A program made the position numbers and the translations under genes. The notes under the pieces are model-generated. The model saw only the letters and a list, made by a program, of their open reading frames with translations. It searched no databases and was not told the DNA's origin. This document shows positions 1 through 29,619 of a stretch of 34,186 bases of DNA, piece after piece. Position 1 is the first letter of the stretch, and each line of letters begins with the position of its first letter. Source of the DNA: Chiloscyllium plagiosum. Lineage: Eukaryota. Location of the stretch: the NCBI RefSeq assembly GCF_004010195.1, contig NC_057758.1, positions 3,906,365 to 3,940,550 of the forward strand. The letters are read 5' to 3'.

Positions 1-368
1 TGGATGCTGCCTGACCTGCTGTGCTGTTCCAGCAATAAAGTTTCAACTTTGATCTCCAGCATCTGCAGATCTCACTTTCTCCTCGAAGATTTCAACCTAC
101 TGCGAATCCTCTTACAAGGATGCCTTCCTTGAAGAAGCTCTCTGCCTCTCTCTACAAAGATTTCAGTGAGTCCCTCTCTCACTGCACACCCCAGGTCATC
201 TCCTCTTCCAACGCCCCTCCTCCAAGTCCCTCCTCCCTACCTTTTATCTTCTCCTGCTGAACACTCTCTGCTCATTCCTGAAGAAGGGCCTGTGCCCGAA
301 ACGTCGAATCTCCTGTTCCCTGGATGCTGCCTGACCTGCTGTGCTGTTCCAGCAATAAAGTTTCAACT
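1..368 (+). mobile_element. Penelope-like element terminal repeat (pLTR) / non-autonomous tandem unit of ~320 bp, truncated by the window start
   Basis: The 48-nt sequence TGGATGCTGCCTGACCTGCTGTGCTGTTCCAGCAATAAAGTTTCAACT occurs identically at 1-48 and 321-368. The unit contains a hammerhead core and an AATAAA. Related sequence recurs at ~8.1-8.3 kb and ~14.5 kb. Confidence 0.75.
274..309 (+). ncRNA. Minimal type I hammerhead ribozyme (PLE/retrozyme type)
   Basis: Stem I ATTC(274-277)/GAAT(306-309); core CTGAAGA (278-284) plus one extra A; stem II GGGC-CTGT-GCCC (286-297); GAAAC (298-302); GTC cleavage triplet (303-305); minimal palindromic helix III (ACGT). Confidence 0.75.
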
Positions 369-1815
369 GGTGAGAATCTTTACCTACTCGGCAGCCCCCG
401 GCCCTTTCTTTCTCTTGTTCCTCTGGAAAAATAAGACCTGTGATGCACTTCATTTTTACAATTTGCAGAGTCAAAAATACCCCTCTGTCCACGTTCATCA
501 CTCACTTCCCGCGCATTCCATTTCACATTCCACATTGAATTCGTGAATAGCACCGTGTAATGTGGCTAGTGGACGTTCAGAAGCGGACTGTTTGCTGGGC
601 ATGTTCGCCGCCATATATCTATTTACTTACCTACGAATTTCTTGTTTTATCTGATGTTTCTCTTCAGGTGCTGCCTTGCGAGGAACTGATGGCTTCTTAA
701 GTATGAACCTAAACACGTAGGCAATCTATGGGAAGTTACGTTCGAGTCCTATTGCAACAGAGTGTGCCATTTCAATTCAATAGAAGTCAATATTGATGGT
801 CGCGTAAATACATCTGATTAACTAATCTTCTTTCGGGCAGGGAAATGGATACGTGTATATGGCGATTCCAGATTTACGGGAATGTGGTTGACTCTGGGTA
901 TTTATAGCATGGACAATAAATGCTGGCCTAGCTAGCACTATCCACATTCTGTAAGTGATCACATTTTTAAAACCCTCTGTCAAAGTATTTTCTCGTCCTG
1001 AGAAAACCCAATGCACGTTAGAGTGTCTTGCGTCGCCAAAACGCCATGAGAGGAAGAGCAAGAATTTGGTGGATCCTTACTTCGATAATCTGCAGCCTCT
1101 GATGCTGTTTCCCCTGCTTCAGACATGAAAGTTCGAATGTATTCTGTTCTTGCATAAGTTTAAAATGGCAGAAACATTCCTCTTCTGTCTCAGTGTGTCC
1201 AGTTAACACTCTCATGAAAAAGTGCTTGAAAATATGCTTAAATCTTCTACATTTATATTTCATTCTGAAATATGAAGTAGAATCCACAAAATGTCTTCAG
1301 GATACATTCAGTCGACAATACAAAGCTAACACAGGAAGGGAGTAGCAGTTCTAGTCGTTATTTTACTTTTGGAACGATGATCTGCTGCAACATGCTTTTT
1401 ACTTGCTGGCAGTTACCTCTTTGATGCTGACATGGGCGTGAACTATGTCTGCCAGATAACCCGCAATGCTGTCTTTGCTCCATTTCTTCACGTTTGAGCC
1501 ATCCTCGCCTTCCATTTGTCATCACTTTCCTTACCAGCAGGTTCAATTCTCAAAGAATCGCTTCCCGCTAATCTGCTACAAGAAAAAGAAGTCCCTTCCC
1601 ATCAAGAGTCCAAAGGGACATGTCCCACACAATACCTGATCCATGCCTTTAATATTCCCATATCTCATTTGTATATTTTAAAAATATCAATATGAATCTC
1701 TTCATCAGCTTATTTTATATATTGTCTTACTAAATCTAAGCATTTCTTATATTCCTCTTCGTTTTTTCACTGTCCAAGGCTACAAGCATCCTTGGTGTTG
1801 TTTTATTTATACCTG

Positions 1816-4461: not shown

Positions 4462-4553
4462 CAAGAATAGCAACCGTACTTTTGTCATCACTGTATATCA
4501 TAAATGACAAGAATAGCAACCGTACTTTTGTCATCACTGTATATCATAAATGA
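4462..4553. repeat. Perfect 46-bp tandem duplication
   Basis: CAAGAATAGCAACCGTACTTTTGTCATCACTGTATATCATAAATGA occurs at 4462-4507 and 4508-4553. Confidence 0.95.
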
Positions 4554-5686: not shown

Positions 5687-5986
5687 NNNNNNNNNNNNNN
5701 NNNNNNNNNNNNNNNNNNNNNNNNNNNNNNNNNNNNNNNNNNNNNNNNNNNNNNNNNNNNNNNNNNNNNNNNNNNNNNNNNNNNNNNNNNNNNNNNNNNN
5801 NNNNNNNNNNNNNNNNNNNNNNNNNNNNNNNNNNNNNNNNNNNNNNNNNNNNNNNNNNNNNNNNNNNNNNNNNNNNNNNNNNNNNNNNNNNNNNNNNNNN
5901 NNNNNNNNNNNNNNNNNNNNNNNNNNNNNNNNNNNNNNNNNNNNNNNNNNNNNNNNNNNNNNNNNNNNNNNNNNNNNNNNNNNNNN
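5687..5986. other. Assembly gap
   Basis: Run of N. Confidence 1.
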
Positions 5987-6061: not shown

Positions 6062-6107
6062 GCTTTCAACTAAGAAGCCAAATTGATTTGGCTTCTTAGT
6101 TGAAAGC
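6062..6107. repeat. Perfect inverted repeat (22-bp arms, 2-nt spacer)
   Basis: GCTTTCAACTAAGAAGCCAAAT-TG-ATTTGGCTTCTTAGTTGAAAGC. Confidence 0.95.
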
Positions 6108-7761: not shown

Positions 7762-8086
7762 GAACGGGAAAAATTTCTGGCTGTAACAGATGCTCCTTTT
7801 TTGTGTATTTTCGGCTTTCGAGATGATTTCCTCGAATTCCAGGTGCAGCCATTACTGCTTTCTATGCAGAAAAAAGAGAGAGTTTCCTCACAGCTCCCTC
7901 TTGACCGTCCCAGAACTAAAACTGCTCAGCTCAGCTGAAGAGCTGACCACTCCCCTTTCAGTATTCATGTCACTTCCAAACTATGACCACTTTGCTGTGA
8001 AGACTCATCTGTTTACACATCAACAGATGACCTCTTAATATTCTTTTCATCTATTTACCAAACCAGACTGATCGGAGCCCAGCGAA

Positions 8087-8311
8087 GGTGAAACTGAGGA
8101 CTGCAGATGCCGGACGTCAGAGTCTGGATTAGAGTAGTGCTGGAAACGCACAGCATGTTAAACAACATTAAAGGAGCAGGAATATCGACGGATGGGAAAA
8201 AGCCCTTCATCGGGAAGGACTTCTGGTTGAAGGGCGTTTGCCTGAAACTTCGATTTTCCAGCTCCTCGGATGCTGCCTGACCTTCTGTGCTTTTCCAGCA
8301 CCACTCTGATC
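8087..8311. mobile_element. Back-to-back inverted pair of Penelope-type terminal repeats, each with a decayed hammerhead
   Basis: The left arm (minus, ~8087-8215) and right arm (plus, ~8221-8311) are imperfect reverse complements. Both resemble 278-368 (GAAGGGC....GCCCGAAACGTCGA...GGATGCTGCCTGACCTGCTGTGCT.TTCCAGCA). Confidence 0.75.
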
Positions 8312-9830: not shown

Positions 9831-9995
9831 TCTTTGGTTGTTGCTGATTGGTAAGGTGAAATAAATGCAGCAGACACATAGGCATTTCCAACAAAATATT
9901 TCTTTTCAGCCAAATTTGATAAATCAGTCGACCCGTTCTGCCAAACTTAGCCAAAGTACAACGTTGCATTCCAGCGAGTACCACTGTTTTTCTAA

Positions 9996-10692
9996 GAGCC
10001 AAAAACGGATACCCCCACATTTTCATCAACAGATGCCTAAAGGAAAGACAACGGAATGAGGACATGCCACAACCCAAAGGACTAGCCACACTACCATACA
10101 TTAAAAACATTTCTGAACTGAGAGCCAGACTACTGCGACCACTCGGACTCATAAAAGCACATAAACAAAACGCCACTCTCAGACAATATCTCACCAGGAC
10201 GAAGGATCCGATACCCAGCATGAGGAAAACCAATATCGTATACTAAACCCCATGCAAGGACTGCAAAAAAACTCTGCATAGGACAAACAGGAAGACAGCT
10301 AATGATCCGCATCCATGAACACCAACTAGCCACGAAACGACATGACCAGCTATCCTTAGTAGCCACACACTCAGATGACAAGCAATATGAGTTCGACTGG
10401 GACAACACTACTATTATGGTCAAGCAAAAGAGAGAACAGCCAGGGAATTCCTAGAAGCATGGCACTCATCCACAGATTCAATCAATAAGCACATCGACCT
10501 GGACCCAATATACTGGCCACTGCAGCGGACAGCTGGAACTGACAACCGGAAGCAGCAGATACAAATCACTATAAATGCCGGAGGAAACATCATAGAAGCG
10601 CTTCACAGGAGGCTCCCAAGCACTGAGGATGCCACCTGGACAGGGAACGAAATGTCTGCAACACAAATTCCCAGCTCGACGAACAGAACCAC
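9996..10692 (+). mobile_element. Penelope-like element, 5'-truncated (RT-EN linker, GIY-YIG endonuclease, 3' terminal region); inactive
   Basis: Translates as KNGYPHIFINRCLK...LATLPYIKNISE...RLLRPLG...TNIVY*TPCKDC...CIGQTGRQLMIRIHEHQLATKRHDQLSLVATH...HE/YEFDWDNTTI...AREFLEAWHS...SINKHIDLDPIY. These are the GIY-YIG motifs of PLEs, with a premature TAA at 10244-10246. Confidence 0.92.
10620..10659 (+). ncRNA. Decayed hammerhead ribozyme in the Penelope 3' end
   Basis: GCA-CTGAGGA-(stem II, mismatched)-GAAAT-GTC-TGC. Stem I is GCA/TGC. GAAAC>GAAAT weakens helix III. Confidence 0.55.
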
Positions 10693-11721
10693 TATATTAT
10701 TCCATTCTCTCTGAAATTTTAATTTCAACATTCCAATTATTGGTACACAGACAGCGAACATAGCTGTTCCTCTGTTTACAGATAATGCAACATTGTCACT
10801 AAGATATATGGGCATGGTGCTGAATCGCTTCACGTTTTCTCCTAAACACAGTGTTTTATATATATCAGCCTGTTGCAATGTGGATTACCACTGAGCATTG
10901 CCCCTAATGAAGACATTCGTTTCCTGGACTGGCAGCAGTAAATGTGATCCATATAAGAAGAAATGGTGCGTCACCAGTTGACTTTATAAATTGCCTATTT
11001 TCACCGAACTGAGCACCGACGACAGCACTTTGTGGTTGAGTTTCTCAGGTGGATTCGACCGATGCCGCCGTTATTTGCTGTGCTGCGATACCCAAAGTGG
11101 CACAGCTGAGCCTCCGCCCTTATACAAACATCTTGCTTTTGAACATTGCAGGGAGTGCAAGAAAATTCAACAGGTCTCAATACAGACGGTGGCCATATTA
11201 TTTGTCTTGACAAGATTTCAATGTTCTTAACAAAGATTTGTTTTTCTCGCATTGGGTTTAGTATTTCTGAAAATCATTTTTCATCTTCTCTCACTTTTTT
11301 GTTCTCGTTTTACAAGCAGGCATCATTTCACGCGATGCACCGTGTACTCATAAACTTTGTTACGTCTGTCTGATCTTTATTTTGCCAATTTCTTTTGTCT
11401 TCTTCAAAATCTCCATAACATGTTCGAAGCGATGTGATAAATGTTGCTCACTTCTCGTTTCCCCACCAGCCGCTGTGTGTGTTGATACTACCTTTAGTTC
11501 AGATTGTGCTCGAGCTTCTGTCCGCAGTTTGCCTGAACCGCTGTTGATGTCTCTCCTACAATTGTGCAGTGGAGTCGGGCCTTTAGAATTCATTGATTCT
11601 CAATAATTCATTCAATACCAAGACGAATTATCTCATTGCAGGTGCCAGTTGTGCCTTAAGTGACTTCATCTATATGAAATAATGTTCTGATCAGTATTCA
11701 TTATGTACCAGAGTTTTTCTT

Positions 11722-12590
11722 TTGACAGTTGCAACTGGACCTCGTGGCTCCGAAACTCAATCCCTCTTACAATAAATCTAACACACTGTACACCATCTAA
11801 ACAACCCTATCAAACTGAGTAACAACGGTCAGGGATCTATGTTCATGGACGCCAAGATCTCTCTGCTCATCCATACTGCCAAAAATATTGCCAATTTGTC
11901 CGTACTCTGTATTCTTGTTACTCATTCCAACGTGAATCTCCTCACACGTGTTCGCATCAAACTCCATTTTCCACCTCCCAACACAACTCTGCAACTTACC
12001 AACGTCCCTCTGTAGCCTGCGACATCCTTTGCCACTGTCCAGAACTCCACCAGCCTTAGTATGATTCACAAATTTACTAACCCATCATTCTGTGCACAAT
12101 CCAGATGATTTATAAAAATGACAAGCAGCAGTAACTCCAAAACAGATCCTTGCGGTACACCACTATCAACTGAATTCCAGGATGCACGTTTCCCATGAGC
12201 CACAATCGTCGGACTTCTTTCAATTCGTCAATTTCTGATCTAAACCAGTAGATCTTCCTCATTCCCGTGCCTCTATATTTCCACAATAGCCTACGATATG
12301 AAACCTTAACAAACGGTTTATCGAAACATATACACCACACCCACCACTTTACCCTCATCAAACGGCTTTGCTACCTTCTCAAAGACCTCAATAAGGTTTG
12401 TGAGGCAAGACCCACCGTTCGTAAAACCGTGGTGTTGCTTTCTTGATGATTGTAAAAATTGTCTCTTACAATTTTTTCCAAAATTTAACCTACAAGAGAC
12501 GTACGGCTCACTGCTCAATAATTACCAAGGTTGTCTCTACACCACATGTTGAACAATGGGGCGACATTTCCTGTTATCCAGTCTTTTGGC
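11722..12590 (-). mobile_element. CR1-clade LINE RT fragment
   Basis: Minus ORFs contain QHHGFTNGGSCLTNLIEVFEKV...DEGKVVGVVYM, RLQRDVGKLQ...WKMEFDANTCE and EQRDLGVHEH, all canonical CR1 RT motifs. Confidence 0.92.
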
Positions 12591-12770
12591 ACGAGTTCAA
12601 AAAAGGTGGGGCATTTTTTTAACGTGAGACTAGAAGGTTTCAGAAAAGGATACGAAGGACAGCCTTCTTTTGTGTCTGAACACATCATAAACATGTGTGG
12701 AATCTGTCACCATACTAACATCGCCAAGCCCTCTGAGAAACTATGTTAACATTGTACTTTCTGCGAAGGT

Positions 12771-12854
12771 NNNNNNNNNNNNNNNNNNNNNNNNNNNNNN
12801 NNNNNNNNNNNNNNNNNNNNNNNNNNNNNNNNNNNNNNNNNNNNNNNNNNNNNN
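12771..12854. other. Assembly gap flanked by a 432-bp direct duplication
   Basis: Run of N; 12339-12770 is nearly identical to 12855-13286. Confidence 0.95.
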
Positions 12855-13108
12855 ACCCACCACTTTACCCTCATCAAACGGCTTGGCTACCTTCTCAAAG
12901 ACCTCAATAAGGTTTGTGAGGCAAGACCCACCGTTCGTAAAACCGTGGTGTTGCTTTCTTGATGATTGTAAAAATTGTCTCTTACAATATTTTCCAAAAT
13001 TTAACCTACAAGAGACGTACGGCTCACTGCTCAATAATTACCAAGGTTGTCTCTACACCACATGTTGAACAATGGGGCGACATTTCCCGTTATCCAGTCT
13101 TTTGGCAC
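12855..13108 (-). mobile_element. CR1 RT fragment (duplicate of 12339-12590)
   Basis: Same HGFTNGGSCLTNLIEVFE ORF as the copy before the gap. Confidence 0.85.
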
Positions 13109-14451
13109 TATTTCAAAAAAGGTGGGGCATTTTTTTAACGTGAGACTAGAAGGTTTCAGAAAAGTATACGAAGGACAGCCTTCTTTTGTGTCTGAACACA
13201 TCATAAACATGTGTGGAATCTGTCACCATACTAACATCGCCAAGCCCTCTGAGAAACTATGTTAACATTGTACTTTCTGCGAAGGTGATAATGTCTTTCT
13301 GAATAATTCACCTTCAAACCATGTTAGAAACCATCTTGGGAGGAGTAAGTGAGAATTTGTATGTAAAGTAAGACCAGTGCAGTGTTTTACTGAGATAAGA
13401 AAAACAGGGAAAGACAATATACATCTCAATGGCTGTGGAGTAAAAAACAAACTGTAGTGTTGTGTTTGTCTTTGAGCGCAACAAGGAGTTGAAAACTGCA
13501 AGGAATACATAGTGCAATGGACAATGAAACGACTCTATTTGACTGATAGTTTGACAGGCTGGGGAAACAGATATTTACAAATAATATTGCAATAGCTCAG
13601 GATAATAGAAGGTGCTTTGGAGCAATGGTCTGCATCTCAAATGTGATCACTGCTGTAATCTAATGACAGAGGTCGACAAAATATAAAACCACTGTGGTCA
13701 AACATTAACCTTCCCATTTTTAATTATAAAGGTAGTACATTTCAGTTGTTTGACCAGATTCGCTGTCTATACTCACCCTGAGTTACTAATGAAGGAGTGG
13801 GCTGAATTCTGAGGCCATCACATTAAGCCCCCGCTTCAAATAATCAGTTCCCAGCTCAGTAAACATTCTTTTTCCGGTCCTTCTGGAAAGTGATGGCGCG
13901 GAACATTCTGCTGTGAGGATTAATTGCAAATATTGTGTATGTTGATTTAAAAAAAACTGATATTTACAGAGCGCCGACCAAACATTCCAAACCATTTTAA
14001 AGAAATTCCTTGTCGACAATGTAGAATTGAACGTCATGCCTTGCACAGTACCATACTGTAGACAATCATATGACGATGACGAGAACACCAGTTTCACTCA
14101 TTTTGGTTCAGGAAGCACTGCACTGGGGTGAATTTCTCGGCTCCCGCTCTCCTTTCAGTTGTAGCCATTTGATTATTTGCAGCCTGAGAGGACAAGCAGG
14201 ACCTTTGGATTAATACATGAATGCGTTACCAGTAGCTTTAGATTTTGTATTGCAGCACTGAGAATAATATGATATTTTCAGAAATTTTGAGAAGCATGTT
14301 TTGCTGGTCTGATGTACGCTTCCGGATTATCTCAGAGAAGGCATATTTTCTGCAGCTAAAGACATTTTACAACTGTCAATAATGATGACTCTGCAAATTC
14401 TTCAGATAATCCAATATAATTTTCCTCTCTCAGGCCAAATCCCAGTTGGAG

Positions 14452-14560
14452 AATATGAGGATTGGAGATGTTGGAAACCCAGGTTCGAAAAGCACAGCAG
14501 GTCAGGCAACATCCAAGGAGGAGGAGGAGGGACGATGTTTTGTGCATAAGCCAATCATCA
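14452..14560 (-). mobile_element. Penelope-type terminal repeat remnant with eroded hammerhead
   Basis: The minus strand reads TGATGATTGGCTTATGCACAAAACATCG...CCTTGGATGTTGCCTGACCTGCTGTGCTTTTC, similar to 278-350. Confidence 0.65.
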
Positions 14561-16505: not shown

Positions 16506-17434
16506 TTACAGTACAGTAAGACGATTAATCTGCTTGCAATTTAGGAAAGAGATCCCTGACCTGTCTGCCCTGTAGAAACACCAGCGTGATGATGCCACTG
16601 GAGAGAGGAAATTCACCTGCCCTGTGTGTAGAGAGCAAAGTCTGACAATGTTTCACTATTTTATGACACCATTGAGTTAATATTAGGTGGAAACCATCTG
16701 GCTACTTGGAGTATGGAAACATTTTCACTCAGTTCTCCAGTCTGCAGAAACATTGCATAATTCACACTGGGGGGATTTGGTTTTTTCTATATCCCTGCTC
16801 CGTTCCTGGAAAAAGGATTCTTTCAGTCATTAAAACAGCGGAAACGTGAGCACATTCACTAAAGAATACCGGAACTTCATCTTCCATAATTATAAACAAC
16901 ATCCAAGTTAAACAGTGCATTACAGGCTCTCAACCTCTAACAGCTCGAAAAAAAGTGCAGAAGTTACATGTTTACAGTACAGTAAGATTAATCTGCTTGC
17001 AATTTAGGAAAGAGATCCCTGACCTGTCTGCCCTGTAGAAACACCAGCGTGATGATGCCACTGGAGAGAGGAAATTCACCTGCCCTGTGTGCAGAGAGCA
17101 AAGTCTGTCAATGTTTCACTATTTTATGACACCATTGAGTTAATATTGGGTGGAAACCATCTGGCTACTTGGAGTATGGAAACATTTTCACTCAGTTCTC
17201 CAGTCTGCAGAAACATTGCATAATTCACACTGGGGGGATTTTGTTTTTTCTATATCCCTGCTCCGTTCCTGGAAAAAGGATTCTTTCAGTCATTAAAACA
17301 GCGGAAACGTGAGCAAATTCACTAAAGAATACAGGAACTTCATCTTCCATAATGATAAACAACATCCAAGTTAAACAGTGCATTACAGGCTCTCAACCTC
17401 TAACAGCTCGAAAAAAAGTGCAGAAGTTACATGT
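16506..17434. repeat. ~465-bp near-identical tandem duplication of non-TE-looking sequence
   Basis: 16506-16971 versus 16972-17434; about 7 substitutions and one 3-bp indel by eye. Confidence 0.93.
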
Positions 17435-23299: not shown

Positions 23300-24595
23300 T
23301 GAGAGAGTCTCGCTCTCGCAGTCTCTCTGTGACACTGTCTGCATGCAGTCACACTCATACGTGTGCATTATTACACACTCACCAACACCCACAGTCAAAC
23401 AATCTCACACATATTTTTCACGCACTCAGAGCACTCTCTCAGTCAAATACAAACAATGACAACCTCCCTTAAACTCTCTCCCTCTCTTTCTCGCTTTCTC
23501 ATACACATGCACGCATTTACGTACTGGCATTCTTAAACACACACATAGACACTGTCTCTCACGCACATAGACACTAAAAAAGCATCACCCACACACATTA
23601 TCCCTCAAACTTTGTCACACAGTCACATGCTCTCTGTCTCACACTCTGTCCCTCGCACTCACTCACGCACTTCCCCTCACACTTTCTCCCTCACACTTTG
23701 TTCTCGATGTGCCTCTCTTACTTGTTCAGAGACAAACTGAATTGCGCACAAACACACCGATACCATCACAGACACAATGCCTCCCTCGTAGAGAGTATGA
23801 CTCCCTCACAATCATTCAGAAATTGTCATCGACTCGCTGACTGCACCACAATCGCACCGAGTCCCTCTCAGATACACTGAATCTCTCACAGTTATGTTAC
23901 ACTGAATTCCTCACAATCATACTGACTCCCTCACAGTCACACTGATTCCCTCACAAGAACACCAACTCCTCGGAAAAGCACTGACACTCTCACAGGCACA
24001 CCGACATTACTGCAGATGCACTGACTCCCTCGCAGACAAACTGACTCCCTCAATGTCAATTCCTCACAAGCTCACTGATTCTGACACAGTCTCACTCCCT
24101 CACAATTTCACTGTTTCCTCACTGTCATAATGATTTTCTCGCTGTCACCCTGATTACGTCGCTCCCACTCTCATTCCCTCACAGTGTTGCCACTTCCACA
24201 CTGTCACACTCACTCCTCCACTGTTGCTCTCAGCCCCCACTGTCAAACTGGCTCCTTCGGTGTTGCACTCACTCACAGCCTTATTCACTCACACCGTCTC
24301 ACTGATTCCAACATTCTATGCTGAATCCCACACAGTCTTACTCACTCCGTCACTCTGCCTCCTCTACTGTCAGACATCCTCGCTCAATTTCACAGTCACT
24401 CCGTCATTCTCACTCACACTCTCACAGTATCACTCACTCCTTCAGTCTCAGTCACTCCCTCCATTTCGCACTGAATATCGCACTCTCCAGCTCAGTTCCT
24501 TCCAGGCATACTCTATCCGTCAATGTCTCACTCACTCCCACAGTTACAGCCGCTCGCTCACAGTCTCATTCGATCCCTCACTGTCACATCCACTC
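23300..24595. repeat. CA/CT-rich low-complexity tract and degenerate ~20-bp minisatellite
   Basis: Repeated CTCACAGTCACACTGACTCC-like units from ~23870 to 24590, with (CA)/(CT) microsatellite-like sequence upstream. Confidence 0.85.
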
Positions 24596-25316
24596 CCTAA
24601 ATTGGACCGAAAGCTCCAGGCATTCGTTTATTGGCAATTCAGCTTCCTTTTAAATGCAGAACATTTGAAGCAAATGTGTTTTTTTTTTGATAAAGTTATG
24701 TTTTCTGCATAAAACAAGGCGGAGACGAGGTAAATTCTGAGACAGATCCTGAACAAGGTTCCACAACTATTATTCAGTGGATGACCTGAAATGTCACGTT
24801 TTGTACATGTATGTCGCTTTGTCTGTTTGAAGCTTGAGAAGTAAGCAGGATCTACTGAAACGTCTAATTCTCTCAGAACAGTAACTTCAAATATATTCAG
24901 GAAGTTTTATCTTCGTCAATCGAAACTTGCACATTATTTCTAACAGAGTTCTACATATCCTGCTTCTGCATTTCAGACTATATCTTTGCAAGGCAGGAAT
25001 GTCTGAAATGAAAACACCATTTGTCACATTTGCCTTTCACGTGTGCTGTCAGATTTACACAACCAAACTGAAGTGTTCTCTGTTCCTTCACCCAGTTTAA
25101 ATCATTAATATTGAGTTTATATTGTCCCTTCTAATTCTAAAATCCAGAACCAGTTCACATCGCGCTGAGATTCATCTGTAGGAGGGTGAGAGACATACAA
25201 AAAGTAAGGCGCGTTTTAATCTGCAAACCAGGACGAGGAATTAGAAGGTGTCAGTCAACTATTTAAAGTTTGGTCACAGCAGCCATTTTATGGTAGCACA
25301 ACACTGATATCAGAGG

Positions 25317-28077: not shown

Positions 28078-28985
28078 TTAATGAGTGAATTGGATTGATT
28101 TATGAATTTGGATTAAGGGATACTTCAGCACATTCTTCAACTGCTGTCTGAACTTTTTCTGGGTCACAGCAGAAATCGCTGTGCTTGTGCAGCAACTGAG
28201 GAGCTGCAGCATGAAACCTAATTCCTGCACGAATGGATAGACAAACACAGACCTATACCCGAAATACCACATCCGGTTCCATATAGAATACACCATCAGC
28301 ATTGACCATAACAAGATGAAATTGCCCGAGATCAGAAACAGCAAAATTATGGATCTTTGTCGATTTCGCATTTCTGTGTCACACTGACCGTCCCCATTTG
28401 TGTGAGCACGCAGTCTCTTGCGGGCTCTGCTGGTCACTAAAATGTGTCTGACGGTGAAAATATTGAGTAGTACAATCAGGAGAAATGGAAGAGCCGAGTT
28501 TAGGACGTGATGAAGGAACTCGATTGCCGTCCAGACACGAGAGGATTGAACACTGCTTGTTATGTGACAAAACCAGGGGATGTTATCCAGATTATGTGTC
28601 CCTGCTAGCATGAAATACCAGAAAATGTTCTTTAAGCAGCTCAGCACAGTCACTGTTCCAAGAACCACAGCCGCTGTTTTCTCACTGCAGTATTTACTTT
28701 TCAGGTTCTGGGAACAAATGGCTACAAACCGATCAAAGGTGAAAGTGACTGTGAACCAGACAGAACAGTCAGTTGCTGCATAAAGCAGGACGACGTGGAT
28801 ATTACACACTTTGATGTACCACAGGAAAGTAAACTCTTCCCAGTAAACAATGGGAATGTGTCTCAATATCAGATCGAGGATAATGACCACTAGATCCGCC
28901 ACTGCCATGGCCCCCAGGTAACGACTGACACAGGGAAACAATCCACAATCTTTATGAAGCAGGATGAAGATTGTCACTCTGGTAA
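28078..28985 (-). CDS. gpr139-like: Class A GPCR, GPR139/GPR142-like family (elasmobranch-expanded); terminal coding exon from late TM1 to stop; possibly a young pseudogene
   Basis: Open ORF of ~300 aa with YLGAMAVADL (TM2), C..., YAATDCSVWFTVTFTFDRFVAIC (TM3, DRF), LKSKYCSEKTAAVV, ECL2 PWFC, LPFLLIVLLNIFTVRHIL (TM5), RSIILLFLISGNFILLW (TM6) and LQLLSCC...VTQKKFR (TM7/H8). A polypyrimidine tract lies upstream (28988-29010). The ORF-track start is GTG, not a true ATG. This is a family-level call, not an orthology call. Confidence 0.9.
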
Positions 28986-29619
28986 TTGTAAGGAAGGTAA
29001 AAAAAGAAAATATGCATCATCCTGGAGGTAAAGTTGTCAGTTGTATTGTGGACAGAGTCAGATTTCAAATGGCTCACTGTATTTAAAGATCTATTGAAAT
29101 TATTGGAGCTGTAATAACACAGCGCAATGTCTGAATTACTTTAGAAATGTGACGCAAATACAAGAATTCCTCCTTTCCCAAACATGGAGACGAACATTCA
29201 TAAGAACATTCATAAAGTTTCGAAGACACTGTCACACACTCTATCACTTGTAACTAAACAAAGGTTACTTCTTTACATTTCCTGACAGGAAAAGTGAAAA
29301 TCGTTCTTGAAACGTAAACACAGACAAAAAAGTTCACCCCATTAACTGCCTGAATGTACTTCGAAACAATGTGTCCTTCTCCCTGCAACGTGCTGTCTTT
29401 CTTGAGAATCATGTCTTTTGGTCAATTCACTGACTTTTGGCCAGTGACTAATACCATCAGTTGAAGAACGCTCCATAGATTGTTCCACTCCTTTTTACGT
29501 CCAACTGTTCTTCTCTCTCTTTGGGATTTCTCCCCAAATATCGTTGACTTTTAACCCCTTGGTTCTGGAAAAAAAAACTGACATTTTCCTCCGATGATCA
29601 GTTCACACGTCAGGGCACC

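What the first reader, a model, noticed from the sequence alone, without database searches (positions are those of the whole stretch)
1..368. Apparently intact hammerhead ribozyme in a ~320-bp tandem unit: candidate shark retrozyme / self-cleaving circRNA source
Seen: an identical 48-nt direct repeat with a 320-bp period (1-48, 321-368) and a complete minimal type I hammerhead at 274-309 (CUGAAGA, GGGC/GCCC stem II, GAAAC, GUC site at 303-305, AUUC/GAAU stem I). The unit has no credible ORF. Known: PLE pseudo-LTRs carry minimal hammerheads with a palindromic helix III that work as dimers, and tandem hammerhead-delimited units of a few hundred nt (metazoan non-LTR retrozymes) are processed into small circular RNAs. 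Inference: a second hammerhead should lie ~40 nt upstream of the window start. A read-through transcript could then pair the two ACGU helices, cleave twice and release a ~320-nt monomer or circle. The identical repeats suggest a recent family. I cannot tell whether this has been described in sharks.
Basis: partly seen in the sequence, partly recalled or inferred. Interest (0 to 1): 0.72.

Follow-up and report, generated by a model that had tools for sequence, protein, structure and literature searches.

The report
Gutted Penelope retroelement with minimal hammerhead
The small self-cutting RNA motif is real, but it sits in a jumping gene of the Penelope type that has lost almost all of its coding part, so this looks like an ordinary broken copy of a very abundant shark element and not a new circular-RNA element.

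Summary
The 48-nt identical repeat (1-48, 321-368) and the minimal type I hammerhead (274-309, cleavage after C305) are real and not chance. The claim 'no credible ORF' is wrong. Bases 120-206 encode 29 residues, 28 identical to the start of a named shark protein whose family is the N-terminus of Neptune-type Penelope-like (RT + GIY-YIG) ORFs. In public shark contigs, many copies leave the window's sequence at 206 and continue that ORF in frame; others enter at 206 from different upstream sequence. So the 320-bp 'period' is: terminal-repeat end, 36-nt tail, 5' UTR, 29 codons, a join with one shared base, then 3' UTR and hammerhead. It is a Penelope copy missing nearly all of its ORF. The runs show many different low-depth joins of this kind. 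I found no sign that this one has spread, though the listing is too cut to exclude it. The upstream hammerhead could not be checked (about 60% likely). Such motifs cleave weakly even as dimers in print, and a 2026 preprint already reports tandem-hammerhead retrozymes in one cartilaginous fish. Known kind, low interest.

The parts
1..48 (+). 3' end of the upstream pseudo-LTR, cut by the window edge
   Evidence: Identical to 321-368; contigs of the family run from it into 49+ (table 8, records 9 and 17)
49..84 (+). Optional ~36-nt 'tail' that follows the pseudo-LTR
   Evidence: Contigs leave at 83/84 into unrelated flanks: X1 135, X5 72, X18 29 and 19, agreement 0.33-0.41 (table 7); an older relative at 8158-8086 also aligns up to position 83; a 30-40 bp tail is described for PLEs (PMC8557442; 31 bp in PMC3846280)
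85..119 (+). 5' untranslated start of the element body
   Evidence: Lies between tail end and ATG at 120; covered continuously by family contigs (table 8). Label is inference.
120..206 (+). First 29 codons of a Neptune-type Penelope-like ORF (MPSLKKLSASLYKDFSESLSHCTPQVISS)
   Evidence: 28 of 29 residues identical to the start of P0002; that N-terminal family links to RT + CX2-5CxxC + GIY-YIG proteins; loose ends behind 206 continue the frame
206..207 (+). Join between ORF start and 3' end; T206 belongs to both parents (one shared base)
   Evidence: table 7: loose ends behind 206 (X1 51, X5 24 contigs) and before 206 (X1 136, X5 128, X18 3, X15 13)
120..260 (+). Chimeric 46-codon frame created by the join (29 PLE codons + 17 codons read from the 3' UTR, then TGA)
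   Evidence: no evidence of translation
207..273 (+). Pyrimidine-rich (79%) 3' untranslated stretch in front of the hammerhead
   Evidence: for composition; in the parent family it is preceded by a different sequence. That it follows the endonuclease end in this family is inferred, not shown.
274..309 (+). Minimal type I hammerhead: helix I 274-277/306-309, core 278-284 and 298-305, bulged A285, helix II 286-289/294-297, palindromic ACGU 301-304, predicted cut after C305
   Evidence: matches the min-HHR traits in PMC4209133
310..368 (+). Rest of the downstream pseudo-LTR; the insertion ends at 367/368 without a tail
   Evidence: X1 flank contigs start at 368 with 17 and 10 unmatched letters in front; X5 record 29 (355-490) runs from the element end into the flank with only 13-14 letters on the element side; X15 loose ends at 365

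Best explanation
A gutted copy of a very abundant Neptune-type Penelope-like retrotransposon. The parent is pseudo-LTR (with minimal hammerhead) - tail - 5' UTR - RT/GIY-YIG ORF - 3' UTR - pseudo-LTR. In this copy almost the whole ORF is missing: codon 29 is joined, with one shared base, to a point 68 nt in front of the downstream hammerhead. That shrinks the spacing of the two terminal repeats from kilobases to 320 nt. Shown: the two parental halves and the join. Inferred: the join arose during insertion, when the RT, having copied about 160 nt from the 3' end, jumped to the 5' part of a template (my estimate 60%), or by a later deletion in the genome (40%). The hammerhead is the inherited pseudo-LTR motif. 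It cannot close helix III alone, could in principle pair ACGU with a second copy, and most likely cleaves little or not at all here. The copy is one of many different low-depth by-products, not a self-propagating family.
For: 120-206 matches P0002 at 28/29 residues and starts 4 more proteins at 18-21/29. P0002 aligns to P0047 (E 2e-14), P0047 to P0028 over 362 columns (E 6e-54); P0028 has DKG, YxDD, C-x5-CxxC and a Pfam GIY-YIG hit above cutoff, and its nearest Atlas clusters carry RVT_1. P0005 holds the same N-terminal family and a PLE RT stretch in one chain. At 206, contigs leave into an in-frame continuation that reads ALKLFSHVLK (X1 consensus, read by eye), as in P0002/P0003 residues 30-39, and others enter from other sequence. 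Summed contig depth over 1-360 is 0.2-12.6 million against about 40-310 in the flank in X1 and X5 (the tool says this is no copy number). 14 of the 15 joints shown (of 92) link the 5' part to the 3' part at many different places, each at depth 30-565. Microhomology joins, internally deleted derivatives and tails are described for PLEs (PMC3846280 passages). Min-HHR single motifs showed no cleavage and dimers low cleavage (PMC4209133); 8 of 9 Xenopus dimer elements gave no cleavage (preprint).
Against: The upstream flank was not seen, so a longer tandem array to the left is not excluded. Table 8 shows only 32 of 69,281 records, and a short contig across the join would not have been listed, so low copy number of the join is not proven. 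The window's helix I is better paired (A308) than the family majority (U at 68% of X1 depth). No full-length DNA copy of the parent was retrieved (0 hits); the link from the N-terminus to RT/EN rests on a chain of protein relatives, the full-length one only about 31% identical to P0002 over 122 residues.
Confidence: 0.8

Rival explanations
1. One reading: a non-autonomous retrozyme family. Two hammerheads 320 nt apart pair their ACGU helices, cleave twice and release a monomer or circle that is reverse-transcribed in trans and spreads.
For: Motif is intact and beyond chance. Size fits the 150-450 bp range of metazoan retrozymes (PMC7229834) and the 363-bp mean given for one chondrichthyan. The dimeric fold is nested and geometrically possible. 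The preprint argues that retrozymes derive from PLE ends.
Against: Interior is ORF start plus 3' UTR. No listed contig bridges the join (32 of 69,281 shown). Circle fold -58.6 kcal/mol against shuffles -52.8 +/- 4.7, z -1.2, 25 of 200 as good, 49% paired. In a model with the upstream repeat assumed equal to the downstream one, the active dimer lies 15 kcal/mol above the ensemble and the inter-copy helix III has probability 0.0007 (no tertiary contacts, Mg2+ or proteins, and no positive control). Helix I is 4 bp with no loop 1.
Confidence: 0.08
2. Sub-case of the best explanation: a partial tandem whose upstream piece starts downstream of the hammerhead, so there is no second ribozyme at all and no double cleavage is possible.
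For: Of the 14 forward joints shown, 7 land at 262-275 (core kept) and 7 at 284-327 (core lost). Leaving out the 3 that start after 321, 4 of 11 lack the core.
Against: The largest cluster of starts is just in front of the hammerhead (7 of 11); only 15 of 92 joints are shown, so this is a rough figure.
Confidence: 0.35
3. The join at 206 is an assembly chimera of two repeat fragments.
For: The window has 4 N gaps and near-identical tandem duplications at 12339/12855 and 16506-17434. The best holder has 0.91 of 34 sampled words, about 3 missing, and about 3 would span the join; which words are missing is not shown.
Against: One shared base gives an assembler no overlap to join on (inference). 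Many natural joins of the same kind stand in the runs. X1's two flank contigs lack the element at 368, so X1 may simply lack this copy.
Confidence: 0.04

Closest known systems
Minimal hammerheads (min-HHR) in pseudo-LTRs of metazoan Penelope-like elements, including fish Xena, Poseidon and Neptune (Cervera and De la Pena 2014, PMC4209133; parts 1-2 of 4 read)
   Same: Type I, no closed helix III, palindromic 15.2-16.2, extra base between positions 9 and 10.1, G10.1-C11.1, 4-bp helix I; most copies are dispersed truncated elements.
   Different: Helix II is 4 bp, shorter than the 7-8 bp of Schistosoma motifs. Sharks are not named in the parts read. The repeats here are 320 nt apart because the ORF is lost.
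Endonuclease-bearing PLEs of the Neptune/Nematis type and their insertion anatomy: partial tandems, 30-40 bp tail, microhomology joins, internally deleted derivatives (Craig et al. 2021, PMC8557442; Arkhipova et al. 2013, PMC3846280; passages read)
   Same: Tail of about 36 nt, ORF start just behind the pseudo-LTR, relatives with DKG, YxDD, CX2-5CxxC linker and C-terminal GIY-YIG.
   Different: This copy keeps only 29 codons and encodes no RT or endonuclease.
Metazoan non-LTR retrozymes (Cervera and De la Pena 2020, PMC7229834, section 13 and passages; Li, Clavereau and Pollet 2026, bioRxiv 10.64898/2026.07.22.740005, parts 1-3 of 5)
   Same: Unit of a few hundred nt bounded by a type I hammerhead repeat; PLE origin as proposed in the preprint; reported there from one chondrichthyan genome, mean 363 bp.
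   Different: Minimal, not canonical, ribozyme; only 1.15 units seen; retains ORF start; modelled circle weakly self-paired; no shown amplification or RNA.

Membership tests
Metazoan PLE min-HHR | Conserved core CUGANGA ... GAAA ... UH with helices I and II | tested here: met
   one hit in the window, 0 of 300 and 0 of 20,000 shuffles
Metazoan PLE min-HHR | Extra base between 9 and 10.1, G10.1-C11.1, palindromic helix III without loop | tested here: met
   A285; G286-C297; ACGU 301-304
Metazoan PLE min-HHR | Self-cleavage as a dimer | not testable with these tools
   Only a secondary-structure model: possible but unfavourable
EN+ Penelope-like element, Neptune/Nematis type (as a derivative) | Sequence derived from an ORF with PLE RT, CX2-5CxxC linker and C-terminal GIY-YIG | tested here: met
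   Through relatives: window 28/29 to P0002; P0002-P0047-P0028 chain and P0005; P0028 motifs and Pfam GIY-YIG. Neptune versus Nematis not separated by a tree.
EN+ Penelope-like element, Neptune/Nematis type (as a derivative) | Pseudo-LTR direct repeat with optional 30-40 bp tail | tested here: met
   48-nt repeat; ends cluster at 83/84 and about 365; older copy ends at the same point
EN+ Penelope-like element (autonomous) | Intact RT-EN ORF in this copy | tested here: not met
   Frame stops at 258-260 after 46 codons
EN+ Penelope-like element | Target-site duplication around the insertion | not testable with these tools
   Left flank is outside the window; no genome held
Non-LTR retrozyme | At least two consecutive tandem units, each with a complete hammerhead | tested here: inconclusive
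   One complete motif and 1.15 periods in the window; upstream unseen
Non-LTR retrozyme | Canonical type I hammerhead with 6-bp helix I and loop 1-loop 2 contact (2020 description; the 2026 preprint also admits minimal motifs) | tested here: not met
   Helix I is 4 bp and no loop 1 is predicted
Non-LTR retrozyme | Highly self-paired circular monomer | tested here: not met
   z -1.2; 25 of 200 shuffles fold as well; 49% paired. No published retrozyme was folded as a control.
Non-LTR retrozyme | The unit itself is multi-copy | tested here: inconclusive
   No listed contig bridges 206, but 32 of 69,281 records are shown
Non-LTR retrozyme | Abundant linear and circular unit-length RNA | not testable with these tools
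   Contigs only; no holder on record as RNA

The most novel reading that the evidence does not exclude
This is a retrozyme caught at birth. Jumps of the Penelope RT keep making short hammerhead-to-hammerhead units of many lengths (the joints imply periods of about 135 to 320 nt). This unit has the better-paired helix I and keeps the element's 5' UTR and ATG; it is transcribed, cleaves as a dimer and yields a 320-nt circle carrying a 46-codon frame. The shark genome would then hold the whole series from autonomous PLE to circle-making retrozyme, and the PLE-to-retrozyme step could be tested directly.
Probability: 0.06. Interest if true: 0.6.

Novelty: new member of a known kind. Interest (0 to 1): 0.17.

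Why it matters
As it most likely stands it matters little: it is one broken copy of an abundant known class. Its use is as a caution and a test case. A 300-nt hammerhead-bounded 'period' in a shark genome can come from loss of the PLE ORF, and tandem-repeat pipelines may count such copies as retrozymes. If the novel reading held, it would show the step by which Penelope elements give rise to circular-RNA retrozymes, and whether minimal hammerheads cut in vivo, which the papers read leave open.

Tried and rejected
Pattern scans for parent copies found 0 loci in viral contigs, metagenome contigs (38, 43) and prokaryote genome contigs (39, 44); these collections hold little animal DNA, so the blanks say nothing. 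Rfam at E<=1 gave no hammerhead among 4 matches. Pfam found no family for P0002, P0005 or the window frames 133-543, 9923-10243 and 10391-10711 and no RT family for P0028; PDB sequence search gave 0 matches for P0028 and only ClpX and weak matches for P0005. Expression: no RNA holder listed. X15 and X18 are only guessed to be RNA and cover the repeat family, not this locus (0 depth at 381-600); not used for or against. Summed contig depth was not used as a copy number. The 0.91 word share is only a weak hint. Repeat identity as proof of youth was rejected; separately, 3,605 of 30,418 X1 contigs are 99% or more alike, so young relatives exist. Splicing as the cause of the join was considered: the donor side continues with GC and the acceptor side does not end in AG in the loose-end consensus, so it was rejected. 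Literature searches listed no paper on this shark family; the library lacks most subscription papers and Repbase/Dfam were not searchable, so the family may well be catalogued. Scan look-ups by sequence and near place were empty.

Full report
Observation. The repeat is as described: 1-48 and 321-368 are identical for exactly 48 nt. The hammerhead is also there: AUUC 274-277, CUGAAGA 278-284, an extra A at 285, GGGC/GCCC 286-297 with a CUGU loop, GAAAC 298-302, GUC 303-305, GAAU 306-309. Helices I and II are the minimum-energy fold of the short fragments. A strict descriptor finds only this site in the window, and 0 of 300 window shuffles and 0 of 20,000 shuffles of 1-368 give a hit. Helix III would be A301-U304 and C302-G303 with no loop, which one copy cannot close; ACGU is a palindrome that two copies can pair. 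These are the traits of the minimal hammerheads described in Penelope-like pseudo-LTRs (PMC4209133, parts 1-2 of 4 read). Only 1.15 periods are visible and no tandem array is called here.

The interior is not non-coding. An ATG at 120 opens a 46-codon frame. Searching it against longer proteins gave 1 hit among 39 candidates, P0002, named by its source as mucin-2-like from Hemiscyllium ocellatum. The first 29 codons match its start at 28 of 29 residues, and the match stops at 206. The first 165 residues of P0002 found 4 proteins among 845 candidates: itself, two named from Chiloscyllium punctatum and Rhincodon typus, and P0005. A full HMMER scan with P0003 gave 59 proteins at E<=0.001. P0002 aligns to P0047 (E 2e-14), and P0047 aligns to the 882-residue P0028 over 362 columns (E 6e-54). 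P0028 carries DKG, YxDD, a C-x5-CxxC linker and a Pfam GIY-YIG match above cutoff, and its nearest Atlas clusters carry RVT_1 in 39-77% of members. P0005 has the shark N-terminal region (57% to P0002 over 72 residues) and an RT stretch 46% identical to P0028 in one chain. The CX2-5CxxC linker marks the Neptune and Nematis clades (PMC8557442, passages), and the preprint names Neptune and Poseidon as the groups found in vertebrates. So 120-206 is the start of a Neptune-type ORF; no tree was built.

Public contigs show the join. No genome is held. Of 24 runs listed, 20 from 9 studies and 4 organism labels hold half or more of the sampled words; I laid 4 of them on 1-600 (contigs only). At 206, 51 contigs of X1 and 24 of X5 leave the window's sequence. 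The X1 consensus reads, by eye and in frame, ALKLFSHVLK, like residues 30-39 of P0002 and P0003. At the same place 136 (X1), 128 (X5), 3 (X18) and 13 (X15) contigs enter from a different upstream sequence. T206 fits both sides. The unit is therefore 5' end joined to 3' end with one shared base. Contigs also leave at 83/84 into unrelated flanks (X1 135, X5 72, X18 29 and 19) and at 365 (X15 15), which defines 49-84 as the optional tail of about 36 nt described for PLEs. An older inverted relative in the window aligns to the same end point (8158-8086). X1's two flank contigs begin at 368 with 17 and 10 unmatched letters, consistent with empty sister sites; one X5 contig (355-490, depth 13.8, 3 differences) runs from the element end into the flank but has too few letters on the element side to count as a formal bridge.

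Is the unit a family? Summed depth over the element is 0.2-12.6 million against about 40-310 in the flank (X1, X5), so the parent is very abundant; the tool warns this is no copy number. Table 5 shows 15 of 92 joints: 14 link the 5' part to the 3' part, with left ends at 77-89 (6), 147-155 (6), 186 and 206, right ends at 262-284 (8), 308-309 (2) and 316-327 (4), each at depth 30-565. Short head-to-tail units of many sizes are thus common by-products. No listed record bridges 206, but only 32 of 69,281 records are shown and a short bridging contig would be missed. This test is inconclusive; it gives no support for amplification. From the right ends, 7 of the 11 that start at or before 321 keep the core, so the unseen upstream hammerhead is roughly 60% likely.

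Would it cut and circularise? The 320-nt circle folds at -58.6 kcal/mol against -52.8 +/- 4.7 for 200 shuffles (z -1.2), unlike the highly self-paired circles described for retrozymes (PMC7229834, section 13); no published retrozyme was folded as a control. Two 49-nt strands give -14.3 kcal/mol for the active dimer against -19.5 for the best fold. In a 427-nt model that assumes the upstream repeat equals the downstream one, the active form is 15 kcal/mol above the ensemble. These models lack tertiary contacts, Mg2+ and proteins, so they only show that the fold is not favoured by pairing alone. In print, single min-HHRs did not cleave and dimers cleaved weakly, and 8 of 9 Xenopus dimer elements showed no product. 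In favour of activity, this copy has A308, which completes helix I, where 68% of X1 depth has U.

Mechanism. Shown: pseudo-LTR end, tail, 5' UTR, 29 codons, join, 3' stretch, hammerhead, pseudo-LTR end. Inferred: the RT copied about 160 nt from the 3' end and jumped to the 5' part of a template (60%), or a full-length insertion later lost its middle (40%). The clustering of other joints at fixed ends favours events at insertion; the window's right breakpoint lies outside those clusters, so deletion stays open. Microhomology joins and an internally deleted derivative are described in PMC3846280 (passages).

Comparison and novelty. It works like, and derives from, an endonuclease-bearing PLE with a minimal hammerhead, known from fish since 2014. 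It is not filed as a non-LTR retrozyme: two features were tested and not met, two were inconclusive and one was untestable. The 2026 preprint (parts 1-3 of 5 read; supplements not seen) reports non-LTR retrozymes in one chondrichthyan, mean 363 bp, and derives them from PLE ends; whether this family is among them may be in those supplements. Five searches listed no paper on this shark family. PMC6155905 was seen as passages only. Earlier scan notes, read after I had recorded my reading, reach similar conclusions for other loci; they are unchecked and are not counted as support. Verdict: real motif, ordinary broken element, interest 0.17; the 'retrozyme at birth' reading is about 6% likely.

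Noticed in passing
window 8086-8300: Head-to-head pair of older, related pseudo-LTR stubs (minus 8219-8086, plus 8229-8300; 72-83% identical to the unit) with decayed hammerhead cores; the inverted one includes the tail.
   Followed up: partly
window 14487-14526 (-): 40-nt stub of the same repeat end, without hammerhead.
   Followed up: partly
window 9923-10714 (+): Broken frames that look, from recall, like the C-terminal part of a Penelope/Poseidon-type ORF, with a loose hammerhead-like motif at 10623-10656. Pfam found nothing, tblastn with P0028 found nothing and the strict descriptor did not hit it.
   Followed up: partly
tables 5 and 5c (window 274-309): Recurrent joints 307/308 to 274/275 in X1 and X5 (depth 79-193; orientation not shown) and joints landing at 308-309, within 3 nt of the predicted cut site. 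They could be 34-36 nt hammerhead duplications or copies that begin at a cleaved RNA end.
   Followed up: no
table 5 (window 147-155): A second cluster of left ends about 100 nt past the pseudo-LTR (6 of 15 joints shown), with a depth drop at the same place; the 155 to 308 joint stands in X1, X5 and X18.
   Followed up: no
window 369-600: The flank appears as 2 variant contigs in X1 and at least 4 in X5, up to about 10% different from the window, so it may be a low-copy duplicated segment.
   Followed up: no
window 28078-29016 (-): Uninterrupted 312-codon frame with a 7tm_1 (rhodopsin-family GPCR) match, E 3e-15.
   Followed up: partly
window 6062-6107: Perfect 22-bp inverted repeat with a 2-nt centre near the N gap at 5687-5986; Rfam mir-3119 score 34.6 is far below the gathering score of 80.
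   Followed up: no
window 12339-13154, 16506-17434, 4462-4553: Near-identical tandem duplications (98%, 97-99%, 100%), the first straddling an N gap; possible assembly artefacts.
   Followed up: no
window 23660-24600: Degenerate minisatellite with a period of about 20 nt.
   Followed up: no
proteins P0002, P0004, P0005: Public gene models contain this PLE N-terminus: one is named mucin-2-like, one is fused behind an acid phosphatase domain, one in front of a ClpX segment. Likely annotation errors or exonised repeats.
   Followed up: partly
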